Source: an uncultured Candidatus Saccharibacteria bacterium (GTDB lineage Bacteria; Patescibacteriota; Doudnabacteria; UBA920). From it: a stretch of 54,967 bases of DNA. Every line of letters begins with the position of its first letter. Positions within the stretch are counted from its first letter, which is position 1. Shown here piece after piece: positions 4,875-20,551 of this stretch. The notes under the pieces are model-generated. The model was not told the origin of the DNA, did not search any database, and saw nothing but the letters and a program-made list of their open reading frames with translations. The stretch spans positions 1 through 54,967 of the forward strand of contig CAZACP010000008.1 of the NCBI GenBank assembly GCA_964483665.1. The letters are read 5' to 3'. The position numbers and the translations under genes were made by a program.

Positions 4875-6020
4875 TTACAGCCCTTTTAATATTTCAGAAA
4901 ATTTTGTTTCTGCCTCTGCTAAACTTATTTGCGGCAAACTAAAAACCAAAAGCTGGTAATTATGCGGGCTTAAAGCAGTAGTTTTTACAGGCTTGCCTAA
5001 ACCTAAAATAAACTTGTCTAAATTTAAACCGTTATAAGCGGCCAAAAAAATTTCTACCGGGCCGCCGTTCTCTTGGGCCAAAACCGCGGCGGCTTTTTTC
5101 CCGGACAGGTTGGCAATTAAATCTAAAATAGACTGCGGTATAAGCGCGCTGCTGGCTCCGGATTTTTCAAAGTCCTGGCCGCTTAACACCGAGTACACCG
5201 TGTCATTTTCGGTTTTAAGCTTGGCTAAAATCCGGCCCCAAAGTCTTAACAAATTTAAAGGCTTAGTTTTGTATAAAGCCTGCACAATTTCCTGCTGCCT
5301 GCCGCCGGCTTCTATTAACTGGGAAGCGGTAAGAAAACTTTTTGGCGTGGTTTTTATATGCTGGAATGAGTCGGTTTTAGAAATTATTCCTGCCAACAGG
5401 CAAGTGGCAATATTTTCGTCTATTAAATACTGCTCAAATTTTTCGAACAAGGAACACAAAATTTCCCCAACTGAAGTCGCGCTTAAGTCGACTAAATTAA
5501 TTGCCCCATAAAATTCGTTTTCTGCTTTGTGGTCAATATTAATTTTGGGGGTTTCATAAAACAAGTCGGCGTTTTGTTCAAACAATCCGCCCAACAAAGA
5601 CAAAACAGGGGCGTCCAAAATAAAAATTAAGTCATAAGGGGCTTTTTCTTTGGCAAAACTTATATCTTGCGGCAAAAAAACCTGGCCGTCCTTTGCTTTT
5701 AAAAAAATACTGGCCTTGTTTTCAGTCGTCTCGTAAGAAAGTTCTTCCAGCTTCTTTTCTGAAGTATCAACCACCACCACCAGGCTTTTGCCTGAAGAAA
5801 GGGAGCTAATGACGGTTTCAGAACCGGGCAAAAATTTTAACTGCTCCGGCACTTCTCCGGAACTTGCCAGGCTGACATCTTTTTTTTGCTTTTCTAAAAA
5901 AGCCTTTAGTGCAAGGCCTGAGGCCAGGGCATCTATGCTTAAAGACTCGGGAAGGGCAACAAGCAGCCTGTTTGCCTTTTTTATTTGCTCAAATATTTGT
6001 TCGTGCGGGGTTAATTCCAT
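4875..6020 (-). CDS. DHH-family phosphoesterase (NrnA-like)
   Basis: SIDALASGLAL, INIDH, ATCLLAGIISKTDSF motifs; some catalytic positions look degenerate. Confidence 0.75.
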   Translation of the reverse strand: MELTPHEQIFEQIKKANRLLVALPESLSIDALASGLALKAFLEKQKKDVSLASSGEVPEQLKFLPGSETVISSLSSGKSLVVVVDTSEKKLEELSYETTENKASIFLKAKDGQVFLPQDISFAKEKAPYDLIFILDAPVLSLLGGLFEQNADLFYETPKINIDHKAENEFYGAINLVDLSATSVGEILCSLFEKFEQYLIDENIATCLLAGIISKTDSFQHIKTTPKSFLTASQLIEAGGRQQEIVQALYKTKPLNLLRLWGRILAKLKTENDTVYSVLSGQDFEKSGASSALIPQSILDLIANLSGKKAAAVLAQENGGPVEIFLAAYNGLNLDKFILGLGKPVKTTALSPHNYQLLVFSLPQISLAEAETKFSEILKGL

Positions 6021-6247
6021 AAAACTTTGATTTGGATGATTAACAAGTATATAACATTTTACTTAGTTGGTCAACCCGGTACATCTACATATAAGTGTTA
6101 TTCCTATAATAAACAAAGCCGCATAACTAACAAAGTTGATTAAAAAAACTTAAATCATCTCATTTTATATTAAATGTTGTATTACCGGGTCAATGTAGGG
6201 TAAAATAGAGTAATGGGCGACCTTATGCTCTTATTTTAGACTTACTT

Positions 6248-6631
6248 ATGCACACAAGCTTAGACCAAATCCCCGCTTTGGCAAAAAAAATTGCCTCAGG
6301 CATAAAAGGCGGAGAAATATTCGCACTTGTTGGAACCTTAGGTAGCGGTAAAACGACTTTTACTCAGGCTTTAGGCAAACAGCTGAAAATAAAACACCAC
6401 ATTACCAGCCCAACCTTCGTTATAATGAATAGGTACCCCTTTAAGCAAAAAACGCCAATGCATTTGTATCACCTAGACCTTTACAGAATAAAAAGTTTTA
6501 AGGACGTAAAAGCTTTGGGCTTAACGGAAATCTGGAACCAAAAAAATAACGTTATAATTATAGAGTGGGCGGACAAAATAAAAAAGCATTTGCCCAAAAA
6601 AACTAAAAAAATTTATTTTAACCAGCCATAA
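6248..6631 (+). CDS. tsaE: t6A biosynthesis ATPase TsaE
   Basis: GTLGSGKTTF, ITSPTF, YHLDLYR, IIEWAD. Confidence 0.95.
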   Translation: MHTSLDQIPALAKKIASGIKGGEIFALVGTLGSGKTTFTQALGKQLKIKHHITSPTFVIMNRYPFKQKTPMHLYHLDLYRIKSFKDVKALGLTEIWNQKNNVIIIEWADKIKKHLPKKTKKIYFNQP

Positions 6632-6695
6632 TTAAAATTCCGTTGCCCAGACAAAATCTAAAACCCTGCTTTTTAGTTCTCTGAATAACCATAAA

Positions 6696-7922
6696 ATGAA
6701 ATATAAATTAATATTAACAATTATTTTACTTGGTCTGCCTTTAACCGGGCGCGCGGCTAACACGCCGGCGGGTCTTTCCGCTGGCCAAGATTTTGTAATT
6801 AATTTTAACGAACAAACTTTTAAATTGCCGGCTGATCAGCTTAGCAAACTAAAAGGCTCCTACCAAATACCTAAAAACAGCAATTTAATTTACAAAACCT
6901 CTACCCAGGAAGAACTGGCGTCGGGATTTTTAAGCGGCCAACTACCAAGCCCAAAAATTGAGACAGTAGTTTTTAGTTTTGATCCGGCCGGTATTTATAA
7001 ATTTGTAACGCAAACAGCCAATGCAGTTGCTAAAAATCCGGTAGAGCCCAGGTTAACAATCCAAAACAATTTTGCAATAGACTTCGCTCCCCCGTCTGAC
7101 GGCATTTTTGTCGACGCTTCGGCCAATACTTTAAAAATTTTAACCGCGCTACAAAACAAGCAAACTTCGCTGGATTTAATTTTTTCCACCTCCAGCCCCA
7201 AAACCCGCCTTTCGGGTACGAATAATTTAGGCATAAACGAACTTATTGCAACAGGTGTTAGCAATTTTAAAGGAAGCCCCTCAAACCGGCGCCACAACAT
7301 AAAAGTTGGCGTGCAAAAATTTAAAGGCCTAATTATAAAAAAGGGAGAAGAATTTAGTTTTAACAAATATTTGGGTCCGGTAGAAGAAGAGCAGGGTTTT
7401 TTGCCGGAATTGGTTATTAAAAAAACAGGCACAGTACCGGAACTTGGCGGCGGGCTATGCCAAGTTTCCTCCACCACTTTTAGAGCCGCAATGGAAGCAG
7501 GATTGCCCATAACCCAAAGAAAAAATCACGCTTACGCCGTGCAATACTACTCTCCTCAAGGCACAGACGCGACCATTTACCCCGGAATTGTGGATTTAAA
7601 ATTTAAAAACGACACTCCGGGAGCAATTTTAGTCTGGCCGCATTTTGAGGCCGGCGACACTTTAATTTTTGACTTCTACGGCAGTAAAGACAATCGGGTT
7701 GTAACTTTGGAAAAGCCCAGGCAATACGACAGAAAACCTGACGGCAGTTTAAAGGCAGAGTGGACACGGATTGTCGAAAAAGACGGAGTAATTTCTTCCT
7801 CCACTTTTAAATCTATTTACCAGCCCCCGGCACTGTTCCATAAAGAAGAAACTTTTGTTACCGCTCCGCCCACTGGCGGACCCACCCCAACACCCGCTCC
7901 TAGCCCAACGCCAACTTTGTAA
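6696..7922 (+). CDS. VanW-family protein with signal peptide and Pro/Thr-rich tail
   Basis: GEEFSFNKYLG, GGGLCQVSSTTFRAA, GTDATIY, DLKFKNDT. Confidence 0.9.
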   Translation: MKYKLILTIILLGLPLTGRAANTPAGLSAGQDFVINFNEQTFKLPADQLSKLKGSYQIPKNSNLIYKTSTQEELASGFLSGQLPSPKIETVVFSFDPAGIYKFVTQTANAVAKNPVEPRLTIQNNFAIDFAPPSDGIFVDASANTLKILTALQNKQTSLDLIFSTSSPKTRLSGTNNLGINELIATGVSNFKGSPSNRRHNIKVGVQKFKGLIIKKGEEFSFNKYLGPVEEEQGFLPELVIKKTGTVPELGGGLCQVSSTTFRAAMEAGLPITQRKNHAYAVQYYSPQGTDATIYPGIVDLKFKNDTPGAILVWPHFEAGDTLIFDFYGSKDNRVVTLEKPRQYDRKPDGSLKAEWTRIVEKDGVISSSTFKSIYQPPALFHKEETFVTAPPTGGPTPTPAPSPTPTL

Positions 7923-7928
7923 TAAATC

Positions 7929-7960
7929 AAACGCGGAAACGAACAAACGTTTCCGCGTTT
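7929..7960. terminator. Bidirectional terminator between vanW and the convergent cargo genes
   Basis: aaacgcggaaacg-aacaaa-cgtttccgcgttt. Confidence 0.8.
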
Positions 7961-7974
7961 TTTAGTTTTCTTTC

Positions 7975-8322
7975 CTATTTCGGATGAAGTCGGTGATGTT
8001 TCTGCCCCTGACAATACCAATGCCCAGGACCGTAAACCACTCTATGAGCGAGCACCCACCCCCCGTCGGCCAAGACAGCTAAAACAAAGACGGGCACCAA
8101 AACAAGCAAAAACTTCCTGCTTAAAGCAACGCCAATATATTCCCTGTGGCCAACCCAGGGGTTTATAGAAAACAGGAACAACCACAAAGCGATTATTCCA
8201 ATAAAACCCAATACCACCTGAGTCCTAGGCATTGTGTCAATGGAAAAAGTTCTCCACCACACACGATAAAACGACACCGAAGCCGTAAGAGCCAAAGCAA
8301 GCATCAAGGTAATACTTTTCAT
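7975..8322 (-). CDS. Hypothetical membrane protein (cargo of trmB-1)
   Basis: 115-aa ORF with about 3 hydrophobic segments; SD GGGGAGG upstream. Confidence 0.7.
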   Translation of the reverse strand: MKSITLMLALALTASVSFYRVWWRTFSIDTMPRTQVVLGFIGIIALWLFLFSINPWVGHREYIGVALSRKFLLVLVPVFVLAVLADGGWVLAHRVVYGPGHWYCQGQKHHRLHPK

Positions 8323-8342
8323 TCTGCCTCCCCTTTTAAATA

Positions 8343-8714
8343 CTACTTCATTCTTCCTTCGCTAAAGTATCCGCCCTCGAGCAGTTCGAGGTACTCTTCG
8401 GGCGCAAAACAACCGATCGCGTATGGCACACATTTCCTCCGCTCGCTTTTCCGTACGGCTAAAATAAAACGGCCCTTGCCCCGAAACCTACTGCGCGTTG
8501 CCTGAATTTTGTAATCCTTATCTTCCAGGCGACTCTCCAAGTCAGCTTTCGCTTCGGCATAGTTCGAAAAAAGGCTAAGTTGAGTGGCAAGCGCCCGAAG
8601 GTTTGGAAATTGACTCCGCGAAGTATTCGGGCACATAAGCACAAACACCTCCGGCCCAAAAATCTCTGTAATTGCTGAAAGCATTGCGGCTTTTAGCTGT
8701 TTAGTCTTGTCCAT
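8343..8714 (-). CDS. Hypothetical protein (cargo of trmB-1)
   Basis: 123-aa ORF; SD AGGAGG upstream; divergent from trmB-1. Confidence 0.7.
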   Translation of the reverse strand: MDKTKQLKAAMLSAITEIFGPEVFVLMCPNTSRSQFPNLRALATQLSLFSNYAEAKADLESRLEDKDYKIQATRSRFRGKGRFILAVRKSERRKCVPYAIGCFAPEEYLELLEGGYFSEGRMK

Positions 8715-8837
8715 ATTTTCCCTCCTGTTTGGGAACTAACAATTTTTTCAAAATTTAAGTAAAATGTCAATTTTGTTGATTTATTTTATAGCATTTAATA
8801 AATTTGACTTAATTTTAAAGCTATTTTATAATTATTT

Positions 8838-8857
8838 TGTTGTCGAAATTTACAACA
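8838..8857. promoter_or_regulatory. Candidate operator TGTTGT-N8-ACAACA between the trmB-1 promoter and its start codon
   Basis: tgttgtcgaaatttacaaca lies just downstream of TTGACT-17-TATAAT. Confidence 0.6.
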
Positions 8858-8861
8858 TTAT

Positions 8862-9608
8862 ATGCATAATTTAAGCCTTATACCCCTGCTTAAACAGTCA
8901 GGGCTTAGTGAAAAAGAAGCCAAAATCTATCTGTCAGGCATAGAAATCGGCGCTGCCAGCATCCAAGACTTAGCCGAGCAAGCCAATATAAAAAGACCAA
9001 CCGCCTACGAAATTGTTGAAACCCTTGAAAAAAAGGGGTTATTTTCCGTAGTGCTTGAAGGAAAAAAGAGAAAATTTTTAGCTGAACAGCCGGAAAGAGT
9101 TTTGGCTTTATTTAAAATCCGTGAACAGGCGTTCGTGAAATCCTTACCTGAGCTAAATCTGTTATTTCAAACTGGCGGCAATAAACCAAAAGTCAAATTC
9201 TATGAGGGCACGGAAGGGTTGGAAGCTATGTATTTAGATACCTTAGAAAGCAAGCAAACAATATTAGTCTACGGCAATATAACGGAAATGTGGGGTGCTA
9301 TATCCCGCGACTTTAAGAAGGAATATATAAAAGCCCGGGTTAAAAAAAATCTTTGGTCAAAATGTATTGTGCCAAACACTCCCGAAACTATGGAATATAG
9401 CAAAAAAGACAAGGAAGAGTGTAGGCAAATGATATTCGTGCCAAAAGAAAATTTTAGCTTCCAAAACGAAATAGATATTTACAATGACAAAGTCGCCATT
9501 TTTTCATTTCCCGAAAAAATCGGCGTTATTATAGAAAGCAAAAAAATCGCGGAAACGCAAAAAATGATTTTTAACCTGGCCTGGCTAGGAGCCTTACAAG
9601 CAATTTAG
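8862..9608 (+). CDS. TrmB-family transcriptional regulator (paralog 1)
   Basis: N-terminal wHTH ([11 protein letters not shown]...[18 protein letters not shown]); C-terminal PKVKFYEG...EIDIYNDKV effector domain. Confidence 0.88.
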
Positions 9609-9627
9609 AAACTGTTATAATACCCCT

Positions 9628-10773: not shown

Positions 10774-10986
10774 ATGGACTTTACCACCGTATCTAACTTA
10801 ATAATTCAGGCCTTTTACTACATACTCGTGTTGCTGGTTTTATTTTGCAGTATTTTTGGAATATACGCGCTCGTTCGCTATGGCCGGTCTCGAACTTTTT
10901 CACTGGTATTAAGCCTTGTCTATATATTCTTTTTTTTAACCGCCCTGTCCCAGTCCTACTCCGCTTTGCAAAAAATCCTTTCTTAG
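10774..10986 (+). CDS. Small two-helix membrane protein
   Basis: 70-aa hydrophobic ORF collinear with ruvB. Confidence 0.7.
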   Translation: MDFTTVSNLIIQAFYYILVLLVLFCSIFGIYALVRYGRSRTFSLVLSLVYIFFFLTALSQSYSALQKILS

Positions 10987-10993
10987 CTTTACC

Positions 10994-11068
10994 AAATACT
11001 AATCTGTACAAATATACTAATAGGGTACAAAAAAATTAGTATATTAGTATTAATTCGTATTTAGTAAA
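10994..11068. repeat. 75-bp TACTAAT/ATTAGTA quasi-palindromic element, copy 1
   Basis: Last 34 nt are 32/34 identical to 35062-35095; same length as copy 2. Confidence 0.8.
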
Positions 11069-11648: not shown

Positions 11649-12089
11649 ATGCCTACTACCGTTGTTGTTTCCGGAGGGTTTGACCCAATTCACATTGGCC
11701 ACATAGAAATGATGCAGGAAGCCAAAGCATTGGGCGATAAGCTAATTGTCATTGTAAACAATGACAATTGGTTAGTTGCAAAAAAAGGTTTTGCTTTTAT
11801 GCCCGAACAAGAGCGTTTGGCTATAGTAAAATCTATTAAACACGTAGACGAAGCGGTCTTAACCGGCCACGAAAAAAATCCAACCGACATGTCGGTTTGC
11901 AAAGAGCTGGAAGAATTAAAGCCGGACATATTTGCCAATGGCGGCGACCGAAAACCCGACGGCGACCCAGTTCCGGAAGTAGAATTATGCAACCGCCTAG
12001 GAATTAAATTAGTTTACAATATAGGTAAAAGTGGAAAAATCCAAAGCTCAAGCGACTTGGTAAAAAAAGCAGTACAAAACAAGGCCTAA
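11649..12089 (+). CDS. Cytidylyltransferase-family (HIGH motif) nucleotidyltransferase
   Basis: VVSGGFDPIHIGHI, FANGGDR, KIQSSS. Confidence 0.9.
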   Translation: MPTTVVVSGGFDPIHIGHIEMMQEAKALGDKLIVIVNNDNWLVAKKGFAFMPEQERLAIVKSIKHVDEAVLTGHEKNPTDMSVCKELEELKPDIFANGGDRKPDGDPVPEVELCNRLGIKLVYNIGKSGKIQSSSDLVKKAVQNKA

Positions 12090-12103
12090 CCGGCCTTGTT
12101 TTT
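12077..12103 (+). terminator. Terminator T1, overlapping the stop codon; duplicated at 13673-13699
   Basis: aaaacaaggcctaaccggccttgtttt. Confidence 0.85.
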
Positions 12104-12151
12104 AGTTGCCCTATCTGCCCCATAAGTCCTATCAATACTTATGCCAAATTT

Positions 12152-12189
12152 AAACCACGCTCGCAAGTTTTTCACTCGCGGCGTGGTTT
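12152..12189 (-). terminator. Terminator of the beta-barrel-like cargo gene
   Basis: aaaccacgc...gcgtggttt. Confidence 0.6.
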
Positions 12190-12205
12190 TGTAATGCATA
12201 ATGGA

Positions 12206-12739
12206 TCATTTCTTGACCCACCTAATTGCGAAAATTACATTGATACGATTACGTTCAAACATCGGCGCCCCCCATAAAAACAATGGCGTGTAGGGAATTT
12301 TGTATTCTACCCTTGGACCAGTGCCCTTGTAGCGTTCGGTAAGAATACCGACTCTGAGCGATTTTGACACTTTTCTATTCAACTCGGTCTTCAACCAAAA
12401 CCCGCTGCCACCATATTCGGGAATAAATAAGACCGATGTTTTAGCATTACCCATCCAAACAAATCCTCCTGCCCGAGCCGGGTTCTTGGCCTCCTCTATC
12501 CCAACACCGCCTGCGAGCTGTAGCCAAGGCTTTGGGTCGTAGGTTAGTCCGCCGTAGCTTTCACTGTAGCCTTCTTGGGTTTGGAACCAAACAAACGCTC
12601 CGAGCTTCCCCGAAAGCCTTCCAGTAATCAACCCGTCGATCCTCGGTGTAACGCTGCCCGATGATACGAAAGTTCGTTGCTCAACCCACGTTTGCGCGAT
12701 TGCGGCGCAAGAAACTAACATCGCAAATAATAGCTTCAT
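12206..12739 (-). CDS. Secreted protein with amphipathic beta-strand pattern, possibly a beta-barrel (cargo of trmB-2)
   Basis: Start MKLLFAMLVSCAAIAQ at 12739 after SD GGAGG; about 10 alternating-pattern strands. Confidence 0.7.
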   Translation of the reverse strand: MKLLFAMLVSCAAIAQTWVEQRTFVSSGSVTPRIDGLITGRLSGKLGAFVWFQTQEGYSESYGGLTYDPKPWLQLAGGVGIEEAKNPARAGGFVWMGNAKTSVLFIPEYGGSGFWLKTELNRKVSKSLRVGILTERYKGTGPRVEYKIPYTPLFLWGAPMFERNRINVIFAIRWVKK

Positions 12740-12878
12740 AGATCCTCCGAACGAGATTCTTGTTAGCCAGCATCCTAGCGTAACCAGCAATAATGCCAAA
12801 AAAATGCATTAGTGTCAATAATTTATAGTCAAAAATAAATAAAATTGCTAAAATTAATCACAAATAAAGCAATAAAAC

Positions 12879-12897
12879 TGTTGATAGTTTTTCAACA
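12879..12897. promoter_or_regulatory. Candidate operator TGTTGA-N7-TCAACA over the trmB-2 -35 box
   Basis: tgttga tagtttt tcaaca; promoter TTGATA-17-TATTAT ends 6 nt before the ATG. Confidence 0.7.
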
Positions 12898-12915
12898 ACA
12901 TGTTATTATTTTGCC

Positions 12916-13686
12916 ATGATACCAGAACTCCTAAAACAACTTGGTTTTGGCGACAAGGAAATTGTGGTTTACACCACATTGCTTCAGCATGGCAAACTTA
13001 CTCCCGCGGCTTTGGGCAGGATTGCCAAAATAAATCGAACCACCGTTTACAGCACGGCTAAAGAGCTGGTGCAAAAAGGCGTAATTGCCGAAGACTTAGG
13101 CGGAGCTAATTTGTATTTGGTGGCAAAACCACCGTCAGATTTAGACAACTTATTAAAAAAAGAGGAAAAGCAGTTGCAAGAAAAAAAAGTCATAATAAAA
13201 AACGCCATAGAAGAACTCCAAGGCATTACAAAAGCCACACAGTACACTATCCCTAAAATTATTTTTAAAGCTCAGGAAGAAGTCGAAGCTCACCTTTATG
13301 AACAAACTCCTAAATGGGACGAGAGTATTTTAAAATACGATGGTATTTGGTGGGGCTTTCAGGATCACACTTTTGTCCAGCATTACGAAAAATGGATAGA
13401 TTGGTACTGGCAAACCGGTTCGAATCCGGCAACGAAGTTAAAACTTTTAAGTAACGAGGTTGCAGAAAAAATTAAAAAGACCAAATATGAAAGAAGGCAA
13501 ATTTCTTTTTGGAAAGAAAGCCATAACTTTAAAACCACCACCTGGATACTGGGCGACTACGTTGTTATGATAGTCACAAATCAGCGCCCGCACTATTTAG
13601 TGGAAATTCACGACGCAACGCTTGCCCACGACCAACGAGAAGTCTTTAAAGGTATTTGGAAAACACAAATAGAAAACAAGGCCTAA
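12916..13686 (+). CDS. TrmB-family transcriptional regulator (paralog 2)
   Basis: wHTH LGFGDKEIVVY...INRTTVY; C-terminal domain clearly paralogous to 16320-17090. Confidence 0.88.
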   Translation: MIPELLKQLGFGDKEIVVYTTLLQHGKLTPAALGRIAKINRTTVYSTAKELVQKGVIAEDLGGANLYLVAKPPSDLDNLLKKEEKQLQEKKVIIKNAIEELQGITKATQYTIPKIIFKAQEEVEAHLYEQTPKWDESILKYDGIWWGFQDHTFVQHYEKWIDWYWQTGSNPATKLKLLSNEVAEKIKKTKYERRQISFWKESHNFKTTTWILGDYVVMIVTNQRPHYLVEIHDATLAHDQREVFKGIWKTQIENKA

Positions 13687-13699
13687 CCAGCCTTGTTTT
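13673..13699 (+). terminator. Terminator T1', copy of 12077-12103
   Basis: aaaacaaggcctaaccagccttgtttt, 26/27 identical. Confidence 0.85.
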
Positions 13700-13710
13700 G
13701 TTTTTTTGTG

Positions 13711-13736
13711 AGTAACTATTCGCGCGAATAGTTACT
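13711..13736. repeat. Perfect loop-less 26-bp palindrome
   Basis: agtaactattcgc|gcgaatagttact. Confidence 0.9.
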
Positions 13737-13762
13737 AGAATAAGTGTTTTTATTTTTCTTCT

Positions 13763-13864
13763 TTAACTTTTCCAAACAGGTTTAAACCTACTTAGAAAAA
13801 TTCCCGAGTAGTGACAGAGCCACTTTATAGCCTCTCGGGATAGGCGGTTTGGGGAGCGATTCAT
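13763..13864 (-). pseudogene. Short SD-led ORF after the ABC ATPase, possibly a truncated next gene of the donor operon
   Basis: GGGGAG SD, then MNRSPNRLSREAIKWLCHYSGIFLSRFKPVWKS*. Confidence 0.35.
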
Positions 13865-13880
13865 TGTTCTACTCCCCTTG

Positions 13881-14624
13881 TTAAAGCTTTCCGGGCATAA
13901 CGCGTCGGAGGAATTCTTGTGTTCGCGGGTGCTGAGGACTGCCCAGCACCGCATTCGCCGCACCGCTCTCAACAACGTGGCCGTGGTCAAGAAAAATTGC
14001 CTGGTTAGCAATCTCTTTGGCAAACCCAATATGGTGAGTTGCCATTACCACGGTCGTACCGGTTGATACTACGTCTTTGACCACATCAAGCAATTCCCAG
14101 ACAAGTTCCGGGTCAAGCGCGGAGGTGATTTCGTCGAGAAGCAGAACTTTGGGCTGTATTGCCATAGCCCGCGCGATTGCTACTCGCTGAGCTTGACCGC
14201 CGGAAAGAGTTGCTGGATAAGCATTTTCTTTTTCCGACAGCTTGACCTTGATAAGCAGTTCGCGCGCGCGGCCTTCGGCTTCAGAACGCCTCATTTTCAG
14301 AATCTGTGTGGGCCCTAGCGTGAGGTTTTCCAAAACCGTTAGGTGTGGCCAGAGGTTTAATCCTTGGAACACCATGCCTACGCGCTGACGCAGTAGTCCA
14401 TTGACCTTAGAGCCAGGCGTGATCTGGAATTCTCCGTCTAGAAGACGAATTGCCCCGGAGTCAATCGGCGTAAGGCCGTTTAAGCAACGAAGAAGTGTTG
14501 TTTTGCCGGAGCCACTGGGTCCAACCAGGGCGAGAACCTGACTCCTCTCGAGTCCGAACGATATTTTGTTCAGTACCTGGAGCTGACTAAAGCTCTTTGA
14601 CACCGAACTTACTTCAACTAACAC
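13881..14624 (-). CDS. Polar amino acid ABC transporter ATP-binding protein (GlnQ-like)
   Basis: GPSGSGKTT, LSGGQAQR, LLLDE; GTG start at 14624. Confidence 0.93.
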   Translation of the reverse strand: MLVEVSSVSKSFSQLQVLNKISFGLERSQVLALVGPSGSGKTTLLRCLNGLTPIDSGAIRLLDGEFQITPGSKVNGLLRQRVGMVFQGLNLWPHLTVLENLTLGPTQILKMRRSEAEGRARELLIKVKLSEKENAYPATLSGGQAQRVAIARAMAIQPKVLLLDEITSALDPELVWELLDVVKDVVSTGTTVVMATHHIGFAKEIANQAIFLDHGHVVESGAANAVLGSPQHPRTQEFLRRVMPGKL

Positions 14625-15255
14625 GAAAAACCTTCCTTTCCAGCCGCCTAACTGAATATTCAAGCGGCAGAATGATTGCTAAATAGAGAATCGCAAGAGT
14701 TGTGTAAACCTCAAACGACTGTTGCGTTAGGGCAATTATACTTCCGCCCCTGTTCAGCAATTCTGCAACACCAATAGTCGACGCCAAAGACGTCAGCTTA
14801 ATGGTTGTGACATACTCGCCAAACAGGTTAGGCAGCATATTTCGTAAGGCCTGTGGTAAAACTATATACCACAAAACCTGCCGAGAATTCATGCCCATTG
14901 AAAGTGCGGATTCACGCTGAGAAACTGAAACCGATTCCAGCCCCGCGCGAATGTTCTCCGCGTAAAAAGCCGCGCCGTTTAAAGCAAGGCCTACAGCAGA
15001 AGAAAAAAACGCCGAGAAAGCAACTCCGGTCAGCATCGGCAAGCTGTAGTAAATCCAGAGCAATACCACCAGTGGCGGTACTGCGCGAAAAGCCACAACA
15101 TACCCGACGACAAGAGCCCGCAATACCACAAACCGATAACTCTGAACCCAAACTAGCGTGACACCAAGAATCGTGCCAAACATAACCGCTAGGCACGACA
15201 GCCCCACGGTAGTGAGCAGGCCATAGAGCCAGGCCTGCCAAAACTGAAACAACAT
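14614..15255 (-). CDS. Polar amino acid ABC transporter permease
   Basis: AENIRAGLESVSVSQRESALSMGM (EAA loop), IVLPQALR. Confidence 0.93.
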   Translation of the reverse strand: MLFQFWQAWLYGLLTTVGLSCLAVMFGTILGVTLVWVQSYRFVVLRALVVGYVVAFRAVPPLVVLLWIYYSLPMLTGVAFSAFFSSAVGLALNGAAFYAENIRAGLESVSVSQRESALSMGMNSRQVLWYIVLPQALRNMLPNLFGEYVTTIKLTSLASTIGVAELLNRGGSIIALTQQSFEVYTTLAILYLAIILPLEYSVRRLERKVFRVS

Positions 15256-15266
15256 ATCTTTTCCTT

Positions 15267-16082
15267 TCAACGAATGTCCGATTGCCAGTTAGCGCCGTAC
15301 TTCTCTTCTAACTGTTTAAGTACGCCGCGAGTCTTAAGAAAGTGAAGCGAGGTGTCTAAAAACCGCAGCCAGTCCGGGTCACCGTAACGAACCGCGAACG
15401 AAGCCGGATTTAAGGCGAACTGCTTTTTTGCAAACAAATCCACCAAGTCGCTGCGGGTGGCTGCAAACTTTGCGATTTGATTGCTGTCAGCAATTGCCAC
15501 ATCGGCGTTGCCCGTAACCACATCGAGCATAAATCGCGAAATCTCTGCGGCCTCAACATTGGTACGGTTGAGCGTAGCCTTCTTGAACTCGGCGGTGGCA
15601 AACAAGTCGCCCGCTTCGCCTGTTGCCAAAACCACCCTTACCCCTGGCTGGTCAAAATCGGAAATCAGACCGAATTTCTCAAATCTGCTTCCGCGCCTAA
15701 CCAAAGCACTAAGTCCCATGTACAACACCGGTTGAGTAAACGCGATTGATTGAGCTCTCTCGATATTAGCAAACATAGGAGCCACAATTACATCCGCGCG
15801 TGCCGACTGCAAGGTTGCGGCCGCATTGCCATAGGTGGTTTCCGTCCACTCGATGCGTGCATTCATGCGCTCGGCGATAATTTCCATCGCCTCGACCAAA
15901 TGCCCGCTATATTCTCCGGTAGTCGCGTTCTTAATGACCATAGGAGAATCTATGACCGTAGCCGCACGGATAACGCGTGTGCGCCGCACTTGGTCGAAAA
16001 TTGACTCCCCCTGCTGCCCCGTTCTGGCGCAACCAGAAAGAATCAAAAATGACACCAAAACTAACAAAAGAATTCTATTCAT
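15267..16082 (-). CDS. Polar amino acid ABC transporter substrate-binding lipoprotein (SBP family 3)
   Basis: Lipobox LSGC; IERAQSIAFTQP; SD GGGAGG before the ATG at 16082. Confidence 0.9.
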   Translation of the reverse strand: MNRILLLVLVSFLILSGCARTGQQGESIFDQVRRTRVIRAATVIDSPMVIKNATTGEYSGHLVEAMEIIAERMNARIEWTETTYGNAAATLQSARADVIVAPMFANIERAQSIAFTQPVLYMGLSALVRRGSRFEKFGLISDFDQPGVRVVLATGEAGDLFATAEFKKATLNRTNVEAAEISRFMLDVVTGNADVAIADSNQIAKFAATRSDLVDLFAKKQFALNPASFAVRYGDPDWLRFLDTSLHFLKTRGVLKQLEEKYGANWQSDIR

Positions 16083-16193
16083 TGTGCCCTCCCTTGGGCT
16101 TGTCAAAGTTCTCTGTTCCGCAAAATAACGGAAAGGTTATTGTTATATTTAACTGTCACAATAACCAAGTATAATACCATATTTTCAACAATA

Positions 16194-16300
16194 TGTCAAT
16201 AATAATTCAACAATTTCCTTAATTTTGCTTTAAACAAAAGTAAAAATATTGTTGATTAAACTTCAACAAATATAAATTTGTTGTTGACAATTAATCAACA
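16194..16300. promoter_or_regulatory. Divergent promoters with three TGTTGA-N7-TCAACA-type operators
   Basis: Perfect sites at 16250-16268 and 16282-16300, a variant at 16194-16212. trmB-3 promoter TTGACA(16284)-17-TATAAT(16307); cargo promoter TTGACA(16199-16194)-17-TATTAT on the minus strand. Confidence 0.75.
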
Positions 16301-16319
16301 TTTTGCTATAATATGAAAT

Positions 16320-17090
16320 ATGATAGCAAACTTACTTAAAAATTTTGGTCTAAACGAAAAAGAGGCTCAAATTTACTTGGCAGTTTTAAAACAAGGTAGG
16401 GCTGCGCCTGCCCATATTGCACAAGTTACTAAAATAAACCGCACCACGGTTTACAGCGTGGCTAAAGAGCTTATAAAAAAAGGCTTTTTGCTTGAAGACC
16501 TGGCAGGGGGGAGCACTTCGCTAGTTGCGGTTCCACCTCAGGAATTAAAATTCTTGGTTCAAAAAGAAGAAAAGGAGCTGGAAAATAAAAAGCAGCTCAT
16601 AAGCCAAATGGTTAAGGAGCTGGAAAATTTTACCAAAGATTCCAAATACGCCATTCCTAAAATTACTTTTATACAAGAACAGGACTTAATGGATTACTTA
16701 TATAAACGCGGTGATGAGTGGCATAAAAGCATTATGAAGTACGACGGCATACTGTGGGGTTTTCAGGACCATACCTTTGCCGAACATTATGAAAAGTGGA
16801 TAGAGTGGGAGTGGAAAATTGGAGGGCCGAAAGATTTACGCCTGAGACTTTTTTCCAACGAGTCCGAAATCGAAGAAAAGAACAAACAAAAAGGCAAAGA
16901 GTTTGAAAGGCGTATAATAAAATACTGGAAAAAACCAAACCAATTTACTGCTTCTGTTTGGGTGCACGGGGATTATTTAGTTTTTGTCCAAACTCAAAGC
17001 CGGCCTCATTATTTAGTGGAAATTTATGATGTCTTGTTAGCCGAAAATATGAGGCAATTTTTTGCTGGCGTGTGGGATGAAATAAAATAA
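16320..17090 (+). CDS. TrmB-family transcriptional regulator (paralog 3)
   Basis: FGLNEKEAQIY...INRTTVY; shares MKYDGILWGFQDHTF-type motif with paralog 2. Confidence 0.88.
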   Translation: MIANLLKNFGLNEKEAQIYLAVLKQGRAAPAHIAQVTKINRTTVYSVAKELIKKGFLLEDLAGGSTSLVAVPPQELKFLVQKEEKELENKKQLISQMVKELENFTKDSKYAIPKITFIQEQDLMDYLYKRGDEWHKSIMKYDGILWGFQDHTFAEHYEKWIEWEWKIGGPKDLRLRLFSNESEIEEKNKQKGKEFERRIIKYWKKPNQFTASVWVHGDYLVFVQTQSRPHYLVEIYDVLLAENMRQFFAGVWDEIK

Positions 17091-17099
17091 CTTTTCAAT

Positions 17100-17153
17100 C
17101 ATGACCAACGAGAAGTCTTTAAAGGCATTTGGAAAACACAAATAGAAAAATAA
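17100..17153 (+). repeat. Orphan copy of the trmB-2 3' end (HDQREVFKGIWKTQIEK*)
   Basis: 48/50 identical to 13627-13676; both differences synonymous. Confidence 0.9.
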
Positions 17154-17188
17154 AAAGACCGGCGGACACACATTTCCGCCGGTCTTTT
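17153..17188. terminator. Bidirectional terminator
   Basis: aaaagaccggcgga-cacacatt-tccgccggtctttt. Confidence 0.85.
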
Positions 17189-17192
17189 TATT

Positions 17193-18338
17193 TTATGCTT
17201 TTAGTTCCACCTCGCTTGGGGAAACGGGCATTATTACCACGTCAAAACCTTCTTCTCTTAAGCTGGTATAAATTCTATTAAATTCAACTTCTTGCATACG
17301 TTCTTCTGGCGCTTCGGTTAGTAGCGGACGAAGCTGTATTACTGTATTTTCTGGTCCAAACCCCTTTTGTTTAAAAACCTCGGGTCTTATTTCCGTTTCA
17401 TTATTGCACACAAAAGTTAAGGTTGGTTTTCTAACTGTTTTATAGCCTTTATTTATTTGCGCATCCACAATTTGTTGGAACTGCTCAGCTATTTCATTCA
17501 GTGGCAACAATAATTTTTCCATCCTATTTCCTTTATGCTCCTCAGTCTCACCTGGCTTATCCGGTCGTTGATTATACACATGCAAAGCGCGCTTTTCTTC
17601 GTTAGTGCTCTGAGCAGAAACCTGGACACTTATTACCGGCTCCCCATTATAATCTGGACTGCTATAAATATCAGCAACAACCTGCATAGGGGTCTTTCTG
17701 TCTTTATTGACTTTTCCCGCAACAGTAGAAATTCTCACCCTTGAAATTGTGTTGCTAAAATCTTTACAAACCATTTCCAAAATATCTTTTAAATGAGGAT
17801 TAGGAGTCGCGTCACCACTCCCAACAAAAGCAATGCCAAATTTCTTTCCCTCTAGCAAAGGACTAACCTTTTTAGCTTCCCTCAAGCTTTCTTCTATTAA
17901 AAGCCTTATTTCTTTTGGACTTAACTCCTTGGTCTTTTTACCTTCATGTCCTTCTGCGTGAGCCGCAAAAGGACACCCCTTGCAATCATATGGGCATATC
18001 CCCCCCTGCAGGGGTAAAAGCAATGTTGGAGAGTTTTTATCTATATAAGCTTCTATGACAGCCCTTCCGTTTTCGGGATCATTTTTATAATTAAATAGTT
18101 CCCAAGCTGCCTTGGACTTTAAGCTCCTTACCCCTGTATAACCGGCCATAACCGCGGTTGAATAATGCAAATGCTGAACATCCCCTGAGCCAGACCTGGT
18201 TTCTTTTTCGTGCCAGCGCATCAAAACACTGTCATCGATAGAAAATTTTTCTATGGCCTCTTCCCCGTCTTTTAGCTGTATTGTCTCAGAATGCGCTGGG
18301 CTATCGCTAATAATTTTAAATTCTGGATGTTCCTTCAT
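17193..18338 (-). CDS. Radical SAM protein, RlmN/Cfr-like scaffold lacking the catalytic cysteines
   Basis: CPYDCKGC (CxxxCxxC); motif order matches RlmN by eye; start overlaps the rsmE stop. Confidence 0.75.
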   Translation of the reverse strand: MKEHPEFKIISDSPAHSETIQLKDGEEAIEKFSIDDSVLMRWHEKETRSGSGDVQHLHYSTAVMAGYTGVRSLKSKAAWELFNYKNDPENGRAVIEAYIDKNSPTLLLPLQGGICPYDCKGCPFAAHAEGHEGKKTKELSPKEIRLLIEESLREAKKVSPLLEGKKFGIAFVGSGDATPNPHLKDILEMVCKDFSNTISRVRISTVAGKVNKDRKTPMQVVADIYSSPDYNGEPVISVQVSAQSTNEEKRALHVYNQRPDKPGETEEHKGNRMEKLLLPLNEIAEQFQQIVDAQINKGYKTVRKPTLTFVCNNETEIRPEVFKQKGFGPENTVIQLRPLLTEAPEERMQEVEFNRIYTSLREEGFDVVIMPVSPSEVELKA

Positions 18339-19459: not shown

Positions 19460-20551
19460 TTAAGCCACCTCTTCGCTTTCTAATGCAGGGCTTAGCGTAA
19501 CATGCTGGGCCGGCATTTCAAGCGGGTGGGTAGTGGTAATAAATGTTTGAAATTTATTTTGTAAAAACTTTAACAAAAAGGTTCTTCTCGTATCGTCTAA
19601 CTCGGAAAGCACATCGTCTAAAAGCAAAATCGGTTTTTCGTCCCCTTGGCTTAAATATTCTAGTTCTAAAACTTTCATGGCTAACACTTGGCTTCTTAGT
19701 TCCCCCCGGGAGGAAAATGGCGACAAATAAAGTCCCTCGCTCTGTAAATAAAAATCATCCCTATGAGGCCCCACCAGACATGTGGCGGCAAGTCGTTCTT
19801 TTGGCAAAGCTTTTTCCAATTTTAATTTAAAAGCAGTAGAAATTTCCTCCAAGGTCTCTCCCGGCAAAGACTGGTACACAACTTCAACCGGCCTATGAAA
19901 ACCGGAAATTAAAGAATAAATTTCTGCTATGCGGTTGTTTAAATAATCACAAAATGTTTTTCTTTCTTTTATTATCCTGCTGCCCAAAACCACCATTTGT
20001 TCGTTCCAGGACAAAAGCTCCTGCTCACTTCCACCTATCCCGGACCGCAAATTTTGCAAAATTTTGTTCTTATAAAACATGGCTTTTTTGTACTCGCCCA
20101 AATCTTCCAAGTACTGCGGATTCTTTTGTGACAAAACCATGTTCAAATATTTTCGCCTGCCCTCGGGTTGCTTGGTAAACATATCCACGTCGGTAGGTTC
20201 AAAAATCACCACCCTAACAAACCCTTGGGCTTCGGCTTTTCGTTTTTTTACTCCGTCTACCAAAAAATTCGCGTAAATTTTTTCCCGTTTTTCCAAAAAA
20301 ACTTTTATAATATGGCTTTCCCCGCCTTTTTCCACCTCAAACTCCACTTCGGAATTTTGGGTTTCTTTTAGAAAAATAAATTCATTATCATCCCTAAAAG
20401 ATTTAAACAAAGAGGCAAAATAAACAGATTCTAAAAGATTAGTCTTCCCAACAGCGTTAGGCCCGGAAAGCACCACAGTAGTGCTGTTAATTTCCAGATC
20501 CAAATCCGGATAATTGCGAAAGTTTTTTAATTTTATTCTTGTTATTTTCAT
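19460..20551 (-). CDS. recF: DNA replication/repair protein RecF
   Basis: KNFRNY, GPNAVGKTNLLES, GPHRDD, SRGELRS, LLLDDVLSELD; start moved to MKIT. Confidence 0.95.
   Translation of the reverse strand: MKITRIKLKNFRNYPDLDLEINSTTVVLSGPNAVGKTNLLESVYFASLFKSFRDDNEFIFLKETQNSEVEFEVEKGGESHIIKVFLEKREKIYANFLVDGVKKRKAEAQGFVRVVIFEPTDVDMFTKQPEGRRKYLNMVLSQKNPQYLEDLGEYKKAMFYKNKILQNLRSGIGGSEQELLSWNEQMVVLGSRIIKERKTFCDYLNNRIAEIYSLISGFHRPVEVVYQSLPGETLEEISTAFKLKLEKALPKERLAATCLVGPHRDDFYLQSEGLYLSPFSSRGELRSQVLAMKVLELEYLSQGDEKPILLLDDVLSELDDTRRTFLLKFLQNKFQTFITTTHPLEMPAQHVTLSPALESEEVA

What the first reader, a model, noticed from the sequence alone, without database searches (positions are those of the whole stretch)
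12077..13699. Beta-strand-protein/trmB-2 module is bracketed by a duplicated terminator that also supplies the trmB-2 stop
Seen: aaaacaaggcctaacc(g/a)gccttgtttt at 12077-12103 and 13673-13699, 26/27 identical. The cytidylyltransferase and TrmB-2 therefore both end in NKA*, whereas the orphan trmB-2 end at 17100 ends in EK*. Inference: a target-site-like duplication of the terminator accompanied insertion of this module. Together with the neighbouring repeat, this points to successive cassette accretion at one hotspot downstream of the cytidylyltransferase.
Basis: partly seen in the sequence, partly recalled or inferred. Interest (0 to 1): 0.7.

Follow-up and report, generated by a model that had tools for sequence, protein, structure and literature searches.

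The report
Duplicated terminator marks a recombination joint
The repeated 27-base terminator is real, but it is most likely the scar of one unequal crossover that stacked two alternative versions of a highly variable locus in a Doudnabacteria (CPR) genome, not a target-site duplication made when the beta-protein/trmB-2 module was inserted.

Summary
T1 (AAAACAAGGCCTAACC[G/A]GCCTTGTTTT) lies at 12076-12102 and 13673-13699, 26/27 identical, with no other copy in the window and 0 expected by chance. It supplies NKA* to both the cytidylyltransferase (CTase) and TrmB-2. The orphan trmB-2 end at 17100-17153 reads ...IEK*.

Fourteen related alleles show the following:
- T1 is the CTase's own terminator. 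It is present once in relatives that lack the module (L006, L103).
- It is also present once in relatives that have beta/trmB-2 but nothing after it (L145, L146). There trmB-2 ends in other terminators.
- T1' occurs only in alleles that carry both the beta/trmB-2 unit and the downstream X-cargo-trmB-3-orphan unit.
- CTase-T1-spacer-beta-trmB-2 is collinear with the single-unit alleles. T1'-X-cargo-trmB-3-orphan-T2 is collinear with L006. The only new joint is ...ATAGAAAA|CAAGGCC....

I therefore read T1' as the left end of a second copy of the locus, fused to the penultimate codon of trmB-2 by one unequal crossover at a 4-nt AAAA overlap. The hotspot idea holds: the cargo, the terminators and even the CTase tail are swapped between near-identical strains. 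The insertion-with-target-duplication idea does not. T1 is not a dispersed repeat, and no recombinase was found. This is an ordinary kind of event, documented here in unusual detail.

The parts
11649..12089 (+). Cytidylyltransferase-like gene (146 aa). Its last three codons and stop (NKA*) lie in the left arm and loop of T1.
   Evidence: Pfam CTP_transf_like, E 1e-15. The same tail is found in L006, L103, L145 and L146. A different tail (KNYAPN*) occurs in L094-L096, which are 98% identical up to 12069.
12076..12102 (.). T1: the native bidirectional intrinsic terminator of the CTase (11-bp stem, 5-nt loop, A-run and T-run).
   Evidence: -19.4 kcal/mol, z -4.75. Present as a single copy at the CTase end in L006, L103, L145 and L146.
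12103..12205 (.). Spacer S plus the terminator hairpin of the beta gene (12152-12189). Collinear with the single-unit alleles.
   Evidence: Hairpin fold -29.6 kcal/mol, z -7.0. Continuous homology with L145 and L146 across T1|S.
12206..12739 (-). Beta-strand protein (177 aa, signal peptide). Predicted 12-stranded barrel.
   Evidence: AF2 pLDDT 89.7. Foldseek top hits are the KdgM porin structures 4fqe/4pr7 (TM 0.61-0.63, E 6e-7). Only 26 homologues found.
12879..12897 (.). TGTTGA-N7-TCAACA palindrome over the -35 box of the trmB-2 promoter (putative operator).
   Evidence: 3 sites in the window, 0.14 expected. Promoter-like site at 12881-12909.
12916..13686 (+). trmB-2 (256 aa, TrmB-family HTH regulator). 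From the third base of codon 254 onward it is encoded by T1'.
   Evidence: Pfam TrmB, E 6e-12. Comparison of C-termini across 120 homologues.
13627..13676 (+). R: the last 50 nt of the ancestral trmB-2 coding sequence. Repeated as R' at 17100-17149.
   Evidence: (D4, 48/50).
13673..13699 (.). T1': second copy of the CTase terminator. It overlaps R by AAAA, which is the single novel joint of the locus. It supplies NKA* to TrmB-2.
   Evidence: It is 27/27 identical to the CTase T1 of allele L145. It is found only in the alleles that carry both units.
13700..13790 (.). Block P-Y: a 26-nt perfect palindrome (13711-13736) followed by a spacer. The 3' part of the spacer is homologous to the sequence that follows the CTase terminator in L006 and L094.
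13791..13845 (-). X: conserved structured terminator at the 3' end of the (-) cargo operon. It is the left frame of unit 2 and the left breakpoint of the cargo swap.
   Evidence: 55/55 identical to L006 although the flanks are about 79% identical. Diverged copies occur in L007, L087 and L098. The joint at 13845|16319 is seen in Logan contigs.
13881..16106 (-). Cargo of unit 2 in this strain: an amino-acid-type ABC transporter (ATPase, permease, binding protein), GC 0.51.
   Evidence: Pfam. Replaced by a 113-aa or 67-aa membrane protein in L141/L094/L006. An ABC ATPase and permease also lie next to trmB-3 in L098.
16250..16300 (.). Two TGTTGA-N7-TCAACA palindromes over the trmB-3 promoter.
16320..17090 (+). 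trmB-3 (256 aa), 48% identical to TrmB-2. It is the regulator of unit 2.
   Evidence: Orthologues in L006 (86%) and L098 (75%, at another locus).
17100..17153 (+). R': orphan 3' end of the ancestral trmB-2 (HDQREVFKGIWKTQIEK*).
   Evidence: The same remnant occurs in L006 (degenerate), in L141, and as a longer 110-nt remnant in L103.
17147..17194 (.). T2: 20-bp-stem bidirectional terminator. It is the original terminator of trmB-2, shared with the convergent radical-SAM gene.
   Evidence: (-31.1 kcal/mol, z -9.9). It follows the trmB-2 remnant in L103.

Best explanation
T1 is the cytidylyltransferase's own Rho-independent, bidirectional terminator. Its left arm and loop encode the last three residues and the stop codon. 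T1' is a second copy of that terminator. It sits at the one novel joint in the locus.

At that joint, the end of trmB-2 (...ATA GAA AA) from one copy of the CTase-rsmE locus was fused, across a 4-nt AAAA overlap, to the start of the CTase terminator of another copy of the locus. The first copy carried the ancestral arrangement CTase-T1-S-beta-trmB-2(IEK*)-T2. The second carried the alternative arrangement CTase-T1-(P)Y-X-cargo-trmB-3-R'-T2. In that second arrangement an earlier replacement had already removed beta and all but the last 50 nt of trmB-2.

One unequal (illegitimate, microhomology-level) crossover between the two therefore stacked both alleles head to tail. It produced both direct-repeat pairs at once (T1/T1' and R/R') and changed the TrmB-2 tail from K* to NKA*. 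Later the unit-2 cargo was exchanged (ABC transporter here, small membrane proteins in sister strains) between the conserved X terminator and the trmB-3 promoter region.

Functionally, T1' now terminates trmB-2 and, on the other strand, backs up X for the convergent cargo operon.

Shown: the repeats, the reading frames, the hairpins, the allele structures and their collinearity, and the restriction of T1' to two-unit alleles. Inferred: the crossover itself, its direction, and terminator activity.
For: 1. T1 is native to the CTase. There is a single T1 at the CTase stop in L006, L103, and L145 and L146. Other Doudnabacteria each have their own tail and terminator there.
2. trmB-2 originally ended IEK*-T2. 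L103 keeps a 110-nt trmB-2 remnant ending IEK* followed by T2. The window, L141 and L006 keep the 50-nt remnant after trmB-3. IEK* is a common end in the family.
3. Unit 1 is ancestral next to the CTase. CTase-beta-trmB-2-rsmE occurs in L008, L010 and L014, with TrmB-2 76-78% identical against 79-84% for the CTase. L145 aligns without a break with window 11998-13686.
4. Unit 2 alone exists. L006 is CTase-T1-Y-X-TM67-trmB-3-R'-terminator-rsmE. L094-L096 are the same type, with flanks 98% identical to the window.
5. T1' and the R|T1' joint occur only in the two-unit alleles: 11 contigs, from two strain groups that differ by about 10% in trmB-2.
6. Window T1' is 27/27 identical to the CTase T1 of L145.
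7. Single-unit, two-unit and unit-2-only alleles occur in samples with closely numbered JGI identifiers (3300045345-3300045396).
8. Allele exchange by recombination is active here. The CTase tail switches at 12069/70 between strains that are 98% identical. trmB-2 identity between the window and L101 ranges from 0.60 to 1.00 per 60-nt block.
9. No other T1 copies exist.
Against: - The 60-nt block with palindrome P that follows T1' is absent after T1 in L006 and L094. A clean crossover between the alleles sampled so far would not produce it. It needs an extra insertion or deletion, or an unsampled parent.
- The order of events is not fixed by the data. A tandem duplication of T1-S-beta-trmB-2, followed by replacement inside the second copy and later T1 x T1' deletion in the L006 lineage, explains the same structures.
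- L087 has a trmB-2-like gene that ends IENKS* and is followed by the S-spacer motif and a terminator resembling the one downstream of beta. This looks like an R|T1-S joint and favours that duplication variant.
- A 4-nt overlap in an A-rich context is weak evidence for microhomology.
- At least six different terminators follow the same ATAGAAAA in different alleles. That position may look like a breakpoint simply because selection ends there.
- Terminator function has not been measured. RNA contigs run through T1'.
Confidence: 0.6

Rival explanations
1. Same class of event, different order. A head-to-tail tandem duplication of the 1.6-kb unit T1-S-beta-trmB-2 occurred within one chromosome (joint R|T1 at AAAA). 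The interior of the second copy was then replaced by P-Y-X-cargo-trmB-3, leaving R'. Unit-2-only alleles such as L006 arose afterwards by recombination between T1 and T1', which deleted unit 1.
For: L087 keeps a trmB-2-like 3' end, then a degenerate T1 left arm (GAAAACAAAAGCTAA, IENKS*), then the S-spacer motif TCCTATTAGTCTTATTT, then a terminator resembling the one downstream of beta. That is the joint expected from a pure tandem duplication. Deleting the interval between T1 and T1' from the window gives the L006 gene order, with R' explained at no extra cost. R and R' each group by position rather than by strain, so the duplication predates the split between the window and L141.
Against: It needs three events against two. 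The evidence that L087 is a mosaic is only suggestive, because the trmB-2 3' end is conserved in every relative. The T1-like sequence in L087 is degenerate. No allele with two beta/trmB-2 copies was found among the alleles recovered. L006 lacks block P.
Confidence: 0.25
2. The beta/trmB-2 module is a cassette that inserted into T1 of a unit-2-type allele and duplicated the terminator as a target-site-like repeat, by transposition or by site-specific recombination at the hairpin.
For: A direct repeat brackets the module. Relatives without the module have one T1. In L101/L141 the left copy is reduced to AAAACAAGGCCTAA. A 14-nt core therefore brackets the module, as at an attL/attR pair.
Against: The left joint T1|S|beta is ancestral, not novel (L145, L146, and synteny in L008/L010/L014). 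Module-only alleles have one T1 and other trmB-2 terminators. The model does not explain R/R', or why the remnant after trmB-3 matches the incoming gene at 48/50. There is no transposase, integrase or terminal inverted repeat. 27 bp is far longer than known target-site duplications. There are only two copies.
Confidence: 0.08
3. No rearrangement created T1'. The terminator after trmB-2 was overwritten by a short ectopic gene conversion from T1, or it converged on the same hairpin.
For: Terminators at this position turn over quickly. At least six different hairpins follow the same ATAGAAAA, all with the stop codon in the loop.
Against: 26-27 of 27 identity, loop included, is not convergence. 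Conversion needs flanking homology, and only AAAA and TTTT are shared. The strict link between T1' and the presence of unit 2 and R' would be unexplained.
Confidence: 0.04
4. Assembly chimera between co-occurring strains that carry the two single-unit alleles.
For: Single-unit alleles of both kinds do co-occur in related samples.
Against: The joint needs k-mers (...CAAATAGAAAACAAGGCC...) that exist in neither parent. It was assembled independently 11 times by different pipelines, and in two diverged strain backgrounds.
Confidence: 0.01

Closest known systems
Rho-independent (intrinsic) bidirectional terminators between gene ends
   Same: GC-rich stem, short loop, A-run upstream and T-run downstream, placed at gene ends. 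T1, T1', T2 and X all have this form.
   Different: Here the stop codon and the last 2-3 codons of the upstream gene lie inside the hairpin. Swapping terminators therefore rewrites the protein's C-terminal tail: NKA*, K*, KTA*, NN*, KV*. Activity was not measured.
Replacement and additive flexible genomic islands maintained by homologous recombination in conserved flanks (e.g. Lopez-Perez et al. 2014, PMC4033161; title and abstract seen, paper not read in full)
   Same: The position is fixed between core genes (CTase and rsmE). Near-identical strains carry different gene content there. Breakpoints fall inside the ends of the flanking core genes.
   Different: The scale is very small (0.1-5 kb) and the host is a CPR bacterium. 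The units are regulator-plus-cargo pairs. Here two alternative alleles have been stacked, not exchanged.
Unequal crossing-over, tandem duplication joints and homology-facilitated illegitimate recombination at microhomology (concept from general knowledge; the term occurs in PMC6382021)
   Same: One novel head-to-tail joint with a few shared bases. Direct repeats of the sequences that flanked the parental breakpoints. The rest of the structure is collinear with the parents.
   Different: The two repeated 'units' differ in content (beta/trmB-2 versus X-cargo/trmB-3). The partners were therefore different alleles, or the second copy was later overwritten. An extra 60-nt block (P) at the joint is unexplained.
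Target-site duplications of transposable elements
   Same: A direct repeat brackets a gene module.
   Different: 27 bp instead of 2-14 bp. There are no terminal inverted repeats and no transposase. The left joint is ancestral. The repeat is a functional terminator that belongs to the neighbouring gene.
Integron gene cassettes with attC hairpins
   Same: Hairpin-forming sites at cassette ends, variable cargo at one locus, and stacking of units.
   Different: There is no integrase or attI within 55 kb. The hairpin is 27 nt and perfect, where attC sites are 57-141 nt and imperfect. There are only two copies. The units include divergent genes. Each other boundary uses a different hairpin.

Membership tests
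Intrinsic (Rho-independent) terminator | GC-rich stem-loop immediately followed by a U-tract, at the 3' end of a transcription unit | tested here: met
   T1: 11-bp stem, 5-nt loop, TTTTT, -19.4 kcal/mol, z -4.75. T1': 10-bp stem, -14.6 kcal/mol, z -4.4. On the minus strand T1' also forms an 11-bp stem followed by a T-rich run. Both lie at stop codons.
Intrinsic (Rho-independent) terminator | Transcripts actually end there | tested here: inconclusive
   Only assembled metatranscriptome contigs were available. One contig spans 13471-13823 across T1'. Read ends could not be examined.
Transposon target-site duplication | Short direct repeat flanking an element that has its own terminal inverted repeats and transposase, with both joints novel relative to the empty site | tested here: not met
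   No transposase or integrase domain in the module or in the scanned window ORFs. No terminal inverted repeats at 12103 or 13672. The left joint is present in single-unit alleles L145 and L146.
Integron cassette array | intI integrase with attI next to the array | tested here: not met
   No Pfam hit to a tyrosine recombinase among the window ORFs scanned: the 10 locus ORFs and 20 of the ORFs >=150 aa downstream of 19.4 kb. Precomputed Pfam for the called genes around the locus, about window 2.9-20.5 kb, also shows none. Seven ORFs of 154-1013 aa downstream (25384, 27086, 29810, 32347, 38233, 38807, 40039, 44673) were not scanned.
Integron cassette array | Each cassette ends in an attC site: an imperfect palindrome of 57-141 nt with R''/L''/L'/R' boxes and extrahelical bases | tested here: not met
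   T1 is a 27-nt perfect palindrome. Other unit ends use unrelated hairpins (T2, X, the beta terminator).
Dispersed repeat (REP/MITE-like) | Many copies spread over the genome and its relatives | tested here: not met
   2 copies in the window. 1 copy in the MAG of the closest species. 4 hits in all GTDB representative genomes and 2 in JGI metagenome contigs, all others in unrelated contexts.
Unequal-crossover / tandem-duplication joint | A single novel head-to-tail joint, with everything on each side collinear with a parental arrangement | tested here: met
   Window 11998-13686 is collinear with L145. Window T1-end, 13791-13845 and 16102-17150 are collinear with L006. The only sequence without a parental counterpart is the joint ATAGAAAA|CAAGG, plus block P.
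Unequal-crossover / tandem-duplication joint | The repeated units are copies of each other | tested here: not met
   Units 1 and 2 share only T1 and R. TrmB-2 and TrmB-3 are 48% identical paralogues. This implies different parental alleles or a later replacement.
Flexible genomic island (replacement/additive) | Same chromosomal position between conserved core genes, with different gene content among close relatives | tested here: met
   The backbone ruvB-bPH-CTase-[variable]-rsmE is found in about 16 Doudnabacteria loci. At least six allele classes occur among strains 80-98% identical in the flank.

The most novel reading that the evidence does not exclude
In these reduced CPR genomes, terminator hairpins that overlap stop codons could be the preferred joints at which self-contained regulator-plus-cargo units (X terminator, cargo, conserved leader, operator, TrmB gene) are stacked, deleted and exchanged between co-occurring strains. 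That would make a cassette system that works without a dedicated integrase, with T1/T1' as one visible product. The trmB-1 unit, present or absent between VanW and RuvB with a changed VanW tail, would be a second product.
Probability: 0.12. Interest if true: 0.6.

Novelty: new member of a known kind. Interest (0 to 1): 0.3.

Why it matters
The main value is as a clean, sequence-level record of how gene content changes in an uncultivated CPR lineage that lacks obvious mobile-element machinery. One small interval next to the replication-origin genes holds at least six allele classes. Breakpoints fall at gene ends, terminators are reused, and regulator/cargo pairs are stacked or swapped.

It also shows a practical consequence for annotation. 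Where the stop codon lies inside the terminator hairpin, recombination at terminators rewrites protein C-termini, and orphan gene ends are left as datable scars.

The event type itself (unequal crossover in a flexible islet) is well known, so the finding does not open a new question. The side observations may deserve more attention than the repeat: a porin-like 12-stranded barrel in a CPR genome, and a 55-nt element that is perfectly conserved across about 20% background divergence.

Tried and rejected
- Rfam scans of the whole window (gathering thresholds) and of 13650-13900 (permissive): only tRNAs and sub-threshold noise.
- Exact-pattern scan for the X element in all GTDB genomes: 38 hits. 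All but the L006 and L007 contigs are in unrelated phyla, which is about the number I estimate for chance given the pattern's length. X is therefore lineage-restricted.
- T1 pattern in metagenome and genome collections: no additional related copies.
- Search for recombinases in the window: none.
- Looked for similarity between spacer S (after T1) and block P (after T1') as a trace of a pure tandem duplication: about 48% identity in AT-rich sequence, not significant (by eye).
- Tested whether the trmB-2-like gene of L087 is a mosaic with a window-like 3' end. Its 3' end is more similar (0.83-0.90 against 0.57-0.73), but that region is conserved in all relatives, so this is only suggestive.
- Tried to use the G/A difference in the T1 loop as a marker for T1'. 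Rejected, because the CTase T1 of L145 carries the same A.
- DNA and RNA runs were available only as assembled contigs. Minority deletion products (T1 x T1', R x R') and transcript 3' ends could not be examined.
- Considered that the weak inverted similarity between R and 13755-13786 (72% over 32 nt, I4) marks an inverted trmB remnant: not above chance.
Full report
**1. Observation**

The 27-nt sequence AAAACAAGGCCTAACCGGCCTTGTTTT lies at 12076-12102, and AAAACAAGGCCTAACCAGCCTTGTTTT lies at 13673-13699.
- The copies are 26/27 identical.
- They are the only matches in the window even with three mismatches allowed. None occurred in 100 dinucleotide-preserving shuffles.
- Similarity does not extend beyond the hairpin.
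- Both copies fold into strong hairpins flanked by an A-run and a T-run (-19.4 and -14.6 kcal/mol, z about -4.5). Both are picked up as terminator-like on both strands.
- The cytidylyltransferase (CTase, 11649-12089) ends VQNKA* and TrmB-2 (12916-13686) ends IENKA*. In both, the TAA stop lies in the hairpin loop.
- The neighbouring repeat is also real. 13627-13676 (the last 50 nt of ancestral trmB-2, called R here) recurs at 17100-17149 (R', 48/50). R' starts nine bases after the trmB-3 stop and reads ...KGIWKTQIEK* into the large terminator T2 at 17147-17194.
- R and T1' overlap by AAAA.

**2. Context**

The window comes from a Candidatus Doudnabacteria (Patescibacteria) genome. The genes around the finding, in order:
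- trmB-1, ruvB, a 70-aa ORF, a bPH-domain protein, the CTase, T1
- a 177-aa secreted all-beta protein on the minus strand
- trmB-2, T1'
- an amino-acid-type ABC transporter on the minus strand (GC 0.51 against 0.41 for the window)
- trmB-3, R', T2
- a radical-SAM gene and rsmE, both on the minus strand
- recF-dnaN-dnaA, starting 0.4 kb beyond rsmE

No integrase or transposase domain was found in the locus ORFs or in the 20 larger ORFs scanned downstream of 19.4 kb. The precomputed Pfam calls for the genes around the locus show none either. A few larger downstream ORFs were not scanned.

**3. Relatives**

The backbone ruvB-small ORF-bPH-CTase-[variable]-rsmE is conserved in about sixteen Doudnabacteria species genomes. 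What lies between the CTase and rsmE differs:
- Nothing: L009, L013, L016, L019-L021.
- beta + trmB-2: L008, L010, L014.
- Other genes + trmB-2: L007.
- trmB-3 only: L006, the closest species.

Each species has its own CTase tail and its own terminator overlapping the stop.

Closer relatives recovered through protein look-ups give a graded series of alleles:

| Allele | Closeness to the window | Structure |
|---|---|---|
| L145 | CTase through trmB-2 82.7% nt | CTase QNKA*-T1-S-beta-trmB-2, which ends ATAGAAAA\|AACCGCCTAA... (IEKTA*) in a third terminator. One T1 only. |
| L146 | about 82% nt | Same left part as L145. |
| L147 | TrmB-2 81% aa | trmB-2 ends IENN* in a fourth terminator, then rsmE. 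|
| L103 | about 80% nt | CTase QNKA*-T1-S-[110-nt trmB-2 remnant ending IEK*]-T2. |
| L006 | about 79% nt | CTase QNKA*-T1-Y-X-67-aa membrane ORF(-)-trmB-3-degenerate R'-terminator-rsmE. |
| L094-L096 | 98% nt up to 12069 | CTase tail switches to KNYAPN* with an unrelated hairpin, then Y-X-113-aa membrane ORF(-)-trmB-3. |
| L141/L142/L101/L143/L144/L086 | 90-99% nt | Both units, as in the window: CTase KNKA* (right arm of T1 lost)-S-beta-trmB-2 IENKA*-T1'-P-Y-X-113-aa ORF-trmB-3-R'-T2-radical SAM. |

**4. What the alleles imply**

- T1 belongs to the CTase. It is present, once, whether or not beta/trmB-2 follows.
- trmB-2 originally ended IEK* followed by T2. This is shown by the L103 remnant and by R' in three lineages.
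- CTase-T1-S-beta-trmB-2 in the window is collinear with the single-unit alleles. The T1|S joint is therefore old.
- T1(')-Y-X-cargo-trmB-3-R'-T2 is collinear with L006.
- The only sequence with no counterpart in a single-unit allele is the joint ...ACACAAATAGAAAA|CAAGGCCTAA..., plus the 60-nt block with palindrome P right after T1'.
- T1', P and that joint occur together in exactly the same eleven contigs, all of which carry both units.
- A true insertion makes two new joints. A head-to-tail fusion of two copies of a locus makes one, and it duplicates the sequences at the two parental breakpoints. That matches T1/T1' and R/R' here.
- Window T1' is 27/27 identical to the CTase T1 of L145.
- Single-unit, unit-2-only and two-unit alleles come from samples with closely numbered JGI identifiers, so they probably co-occur.

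**5. Most likely history (inferred)**

- Ancestor: CTase-T1-S-beta-trmB-2(IEK*)-T2.
- In one lineage, S-beta and all but the last 50 nt of trmB-2 were replaced by Y-X-cargo-trmB-3.
  - That module exists elsewhere in a more distant genome, L098, with X, an ABC ATPase and permease, a small membrane ORF and trmB-3, and with no R'.
  - This replacement gave the L006-type allele.
- An unequal crossover then joined the end of trmB-2 in an ancestral-type chromosome to the start of T1 in an L006-type chromosome, at AAAA. This stacked the two alleles and changed the TrmB-2 tail from K* to NKA*.
- R groups with R, and R' with R', across the window and L141. The joint therefore predates the split between those strains.
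- An equally mechanistic variant is duplication first, then replacement within the second copy, then T1 x T1' deletion in the L006 lineage.
  - L087 gives it some support. There a trmB-2-like gene ends IENKS* and is followed by the S motif and a terminator resembling the one downstream of beta.
  - I cannot separate the two orders of events with the present data.
- Later, the unit-2 cargo was exchanged between X (breakpoint 13845) and the promoter/leader region (about 16156). The window has the ABC transporter where sister strains have a 113-aa membrane protein.

**6. How it works now**

- T1 ends CTase transcription. It sits about 50 nt from the separate strong terminator of the convergent beta gene at 12152-12189.
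- T1' ends trmB-2. Together with X it separates trmB-2 from the convergent cargo operon.
- T2 serves trmB-3 and the convergent radical-SAM gene.
- These roles are predicted from sequence. RNA-seq contigs show that the locus is transcribed in wastewater communities but cannot show 3' ends.

**7. Rejected or down-weighted readings**

- Dispersed repeat: rejected. The pattern has four hits in 596 Gb of representative genomes and two in metagenome contigs, and only the L006 contig is related.
- Transposon target-site duplication or integron-like cassette: defining features were tested and not met (see the membership table).
- Gene conversion or convergence: does not explain the link between T1' and unit 2.
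- Assembly chimera: excluded by the novel joint k-mers and by eleven independent assemblies.

**8. Verdict**

The specific mechanism proposed (target-site-like duplication on insertion of beta/trmB-2) is not supported. The repeat is best read as the scar of an unequal crossover, or tandem joint, in a small flexible islet. This is a new, well-resolved example of a known kind of event. Interest is modest (0.3).

The following side observations are listed separately:
- the porin-like barrel
- the perfectly conserved X element
- the conserved T1'-P-Y-X block
- terminator-encoded protein tails
- the trmB-1 unit indel
- an 85-nt palindromic dispersed element

Noticed in passing
window 13791-13845 (core 13801-13841); L006 10487-10541; L007 12506-12542; L087 236-272; L098 about 1095-1140: Element X lies at the 3' end of the minus-strand cargo. 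Read on the minus strand it is CCCGAG, an inner hairpin, CUCGGG and then a U-tract. It is 55/55 identical between the window and L006 although their flanks are about 79% identical. Diverged copies with a different inner hairpin sit behind different cargo genes in L007, L087 and L098. It has no Rfam family. It looks like a conserved structured terminator that frames the swappable cargo.
   Followed up: partly
window 13687-13845: The whole non-coding block T1'-P-Y-X differs at only 2 of about 159 positions between the window and allele L141/L101, while the adjacent trmB-2 is about 89-90% identical. It includes a unique 26-nt perfect palindrome, AGTAACTATTCGCGCGAATAGTTACT (13711-13736), that is absent from L006 and L094. 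The reason for this conservation is unknown.
   Followed up: partly
window 12206-12739 (-): The 'beta-strand protein' is predicted (AF2, pLDDT 89.7) to be a 12-stranded barrel with a signal peptide. Its closest solved folds are the outer-membrane porins KdgM and NanC (TM 0.61-0.63, E 6e-7). Only 26 homologues were found among 5.8 billion proteins, all unnamed or labelled as Patescibacteria-group or unclassified bacteria. A porin-like barrel is unexpected in a lineage generally regarded as having no outer membrane. It sits next to a sugar-regulator-family (TrmB) gene.
   Followed up: partly
window 7913-9622: A further regulator-plus-cargo unit (two small minus-strand ORFs plus trmB-1) is absent from L141, whose upstream flank (window 4448-7912) is 99.1% identical. 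The last codons of VanW and its terminator change at the breakpoint. This is the same pattern as at the CTase end.
   Followed up: partly
window 13846-16155; L098 1150-2624: The ABC transporter (GC 0.51) replaces a 113-aa membrane protein of sister strains exactly between X and the promoter/leader region. In the distant genome L098, an ABC ATPase (67% aa) and a permease also sit between an X-like element and trmB-3. The association between the ABC genes and trmB-3 is therefore old and is not a random recent import.
   Followed up: partly
window 12879-12897, 16250-16268, 16282-16300: TGTTGA-N7-TCAACA palindromes occur only over the promoters of trmB-2 and trmB-3 (3 sites, 0.14 expected). They are conserved upstream of trmB-3 in L006, L098 and L141. 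They are probably TrmB operators for autoregulation and control of the divergent cargo.
   Followed up: partly
window about 16120-16165 (-): The 5' leader of the cargo operon has a conserved hairpin (GGTTATTGT...ACAATAACC followed by CCTTTCC). L098 and L006 carry compensatory changes in it, and it is kept although the cargo differs.
   Followed up: no
trmB-2 3' ends: window 13669-13699 and 17142-17194; L006 about 11800; L008 11935; L145; L147 1335-1365: At least six unrelated terminator hairpins follow the same ...ATAGAAAA in different alleles, and each places the stop codon in or next to its loop. The C-terminal tails of the TrmB-2 and CTase families (K, NKA, KTA, NN, KV, NRP and others) are therefore encoded by interchangeable terminators.
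   Followed up: partly
window 10984-11068 and 35015-35099: An 85-nt AT-rich palindromic element occurs twice in the window (about 80% identical, readable in both orientations). Its 38-nt arm, 11031-11068, matches many otherwise unrelated contigs in the same metagenomes. It is a dispersed palindromic repeat of unknown role.
   Followed up: partly
window 8862-9608, 12916-13686, 16320-17090, 35760-36638 (-), 37269-38045 (-): There are five TrmB-family regulator genes in 55 kb of a small CPR genome. The variable locus lies about 0.4-7 kb from recF-dnaN-dnaA (19460-23317).
   Followed up: no
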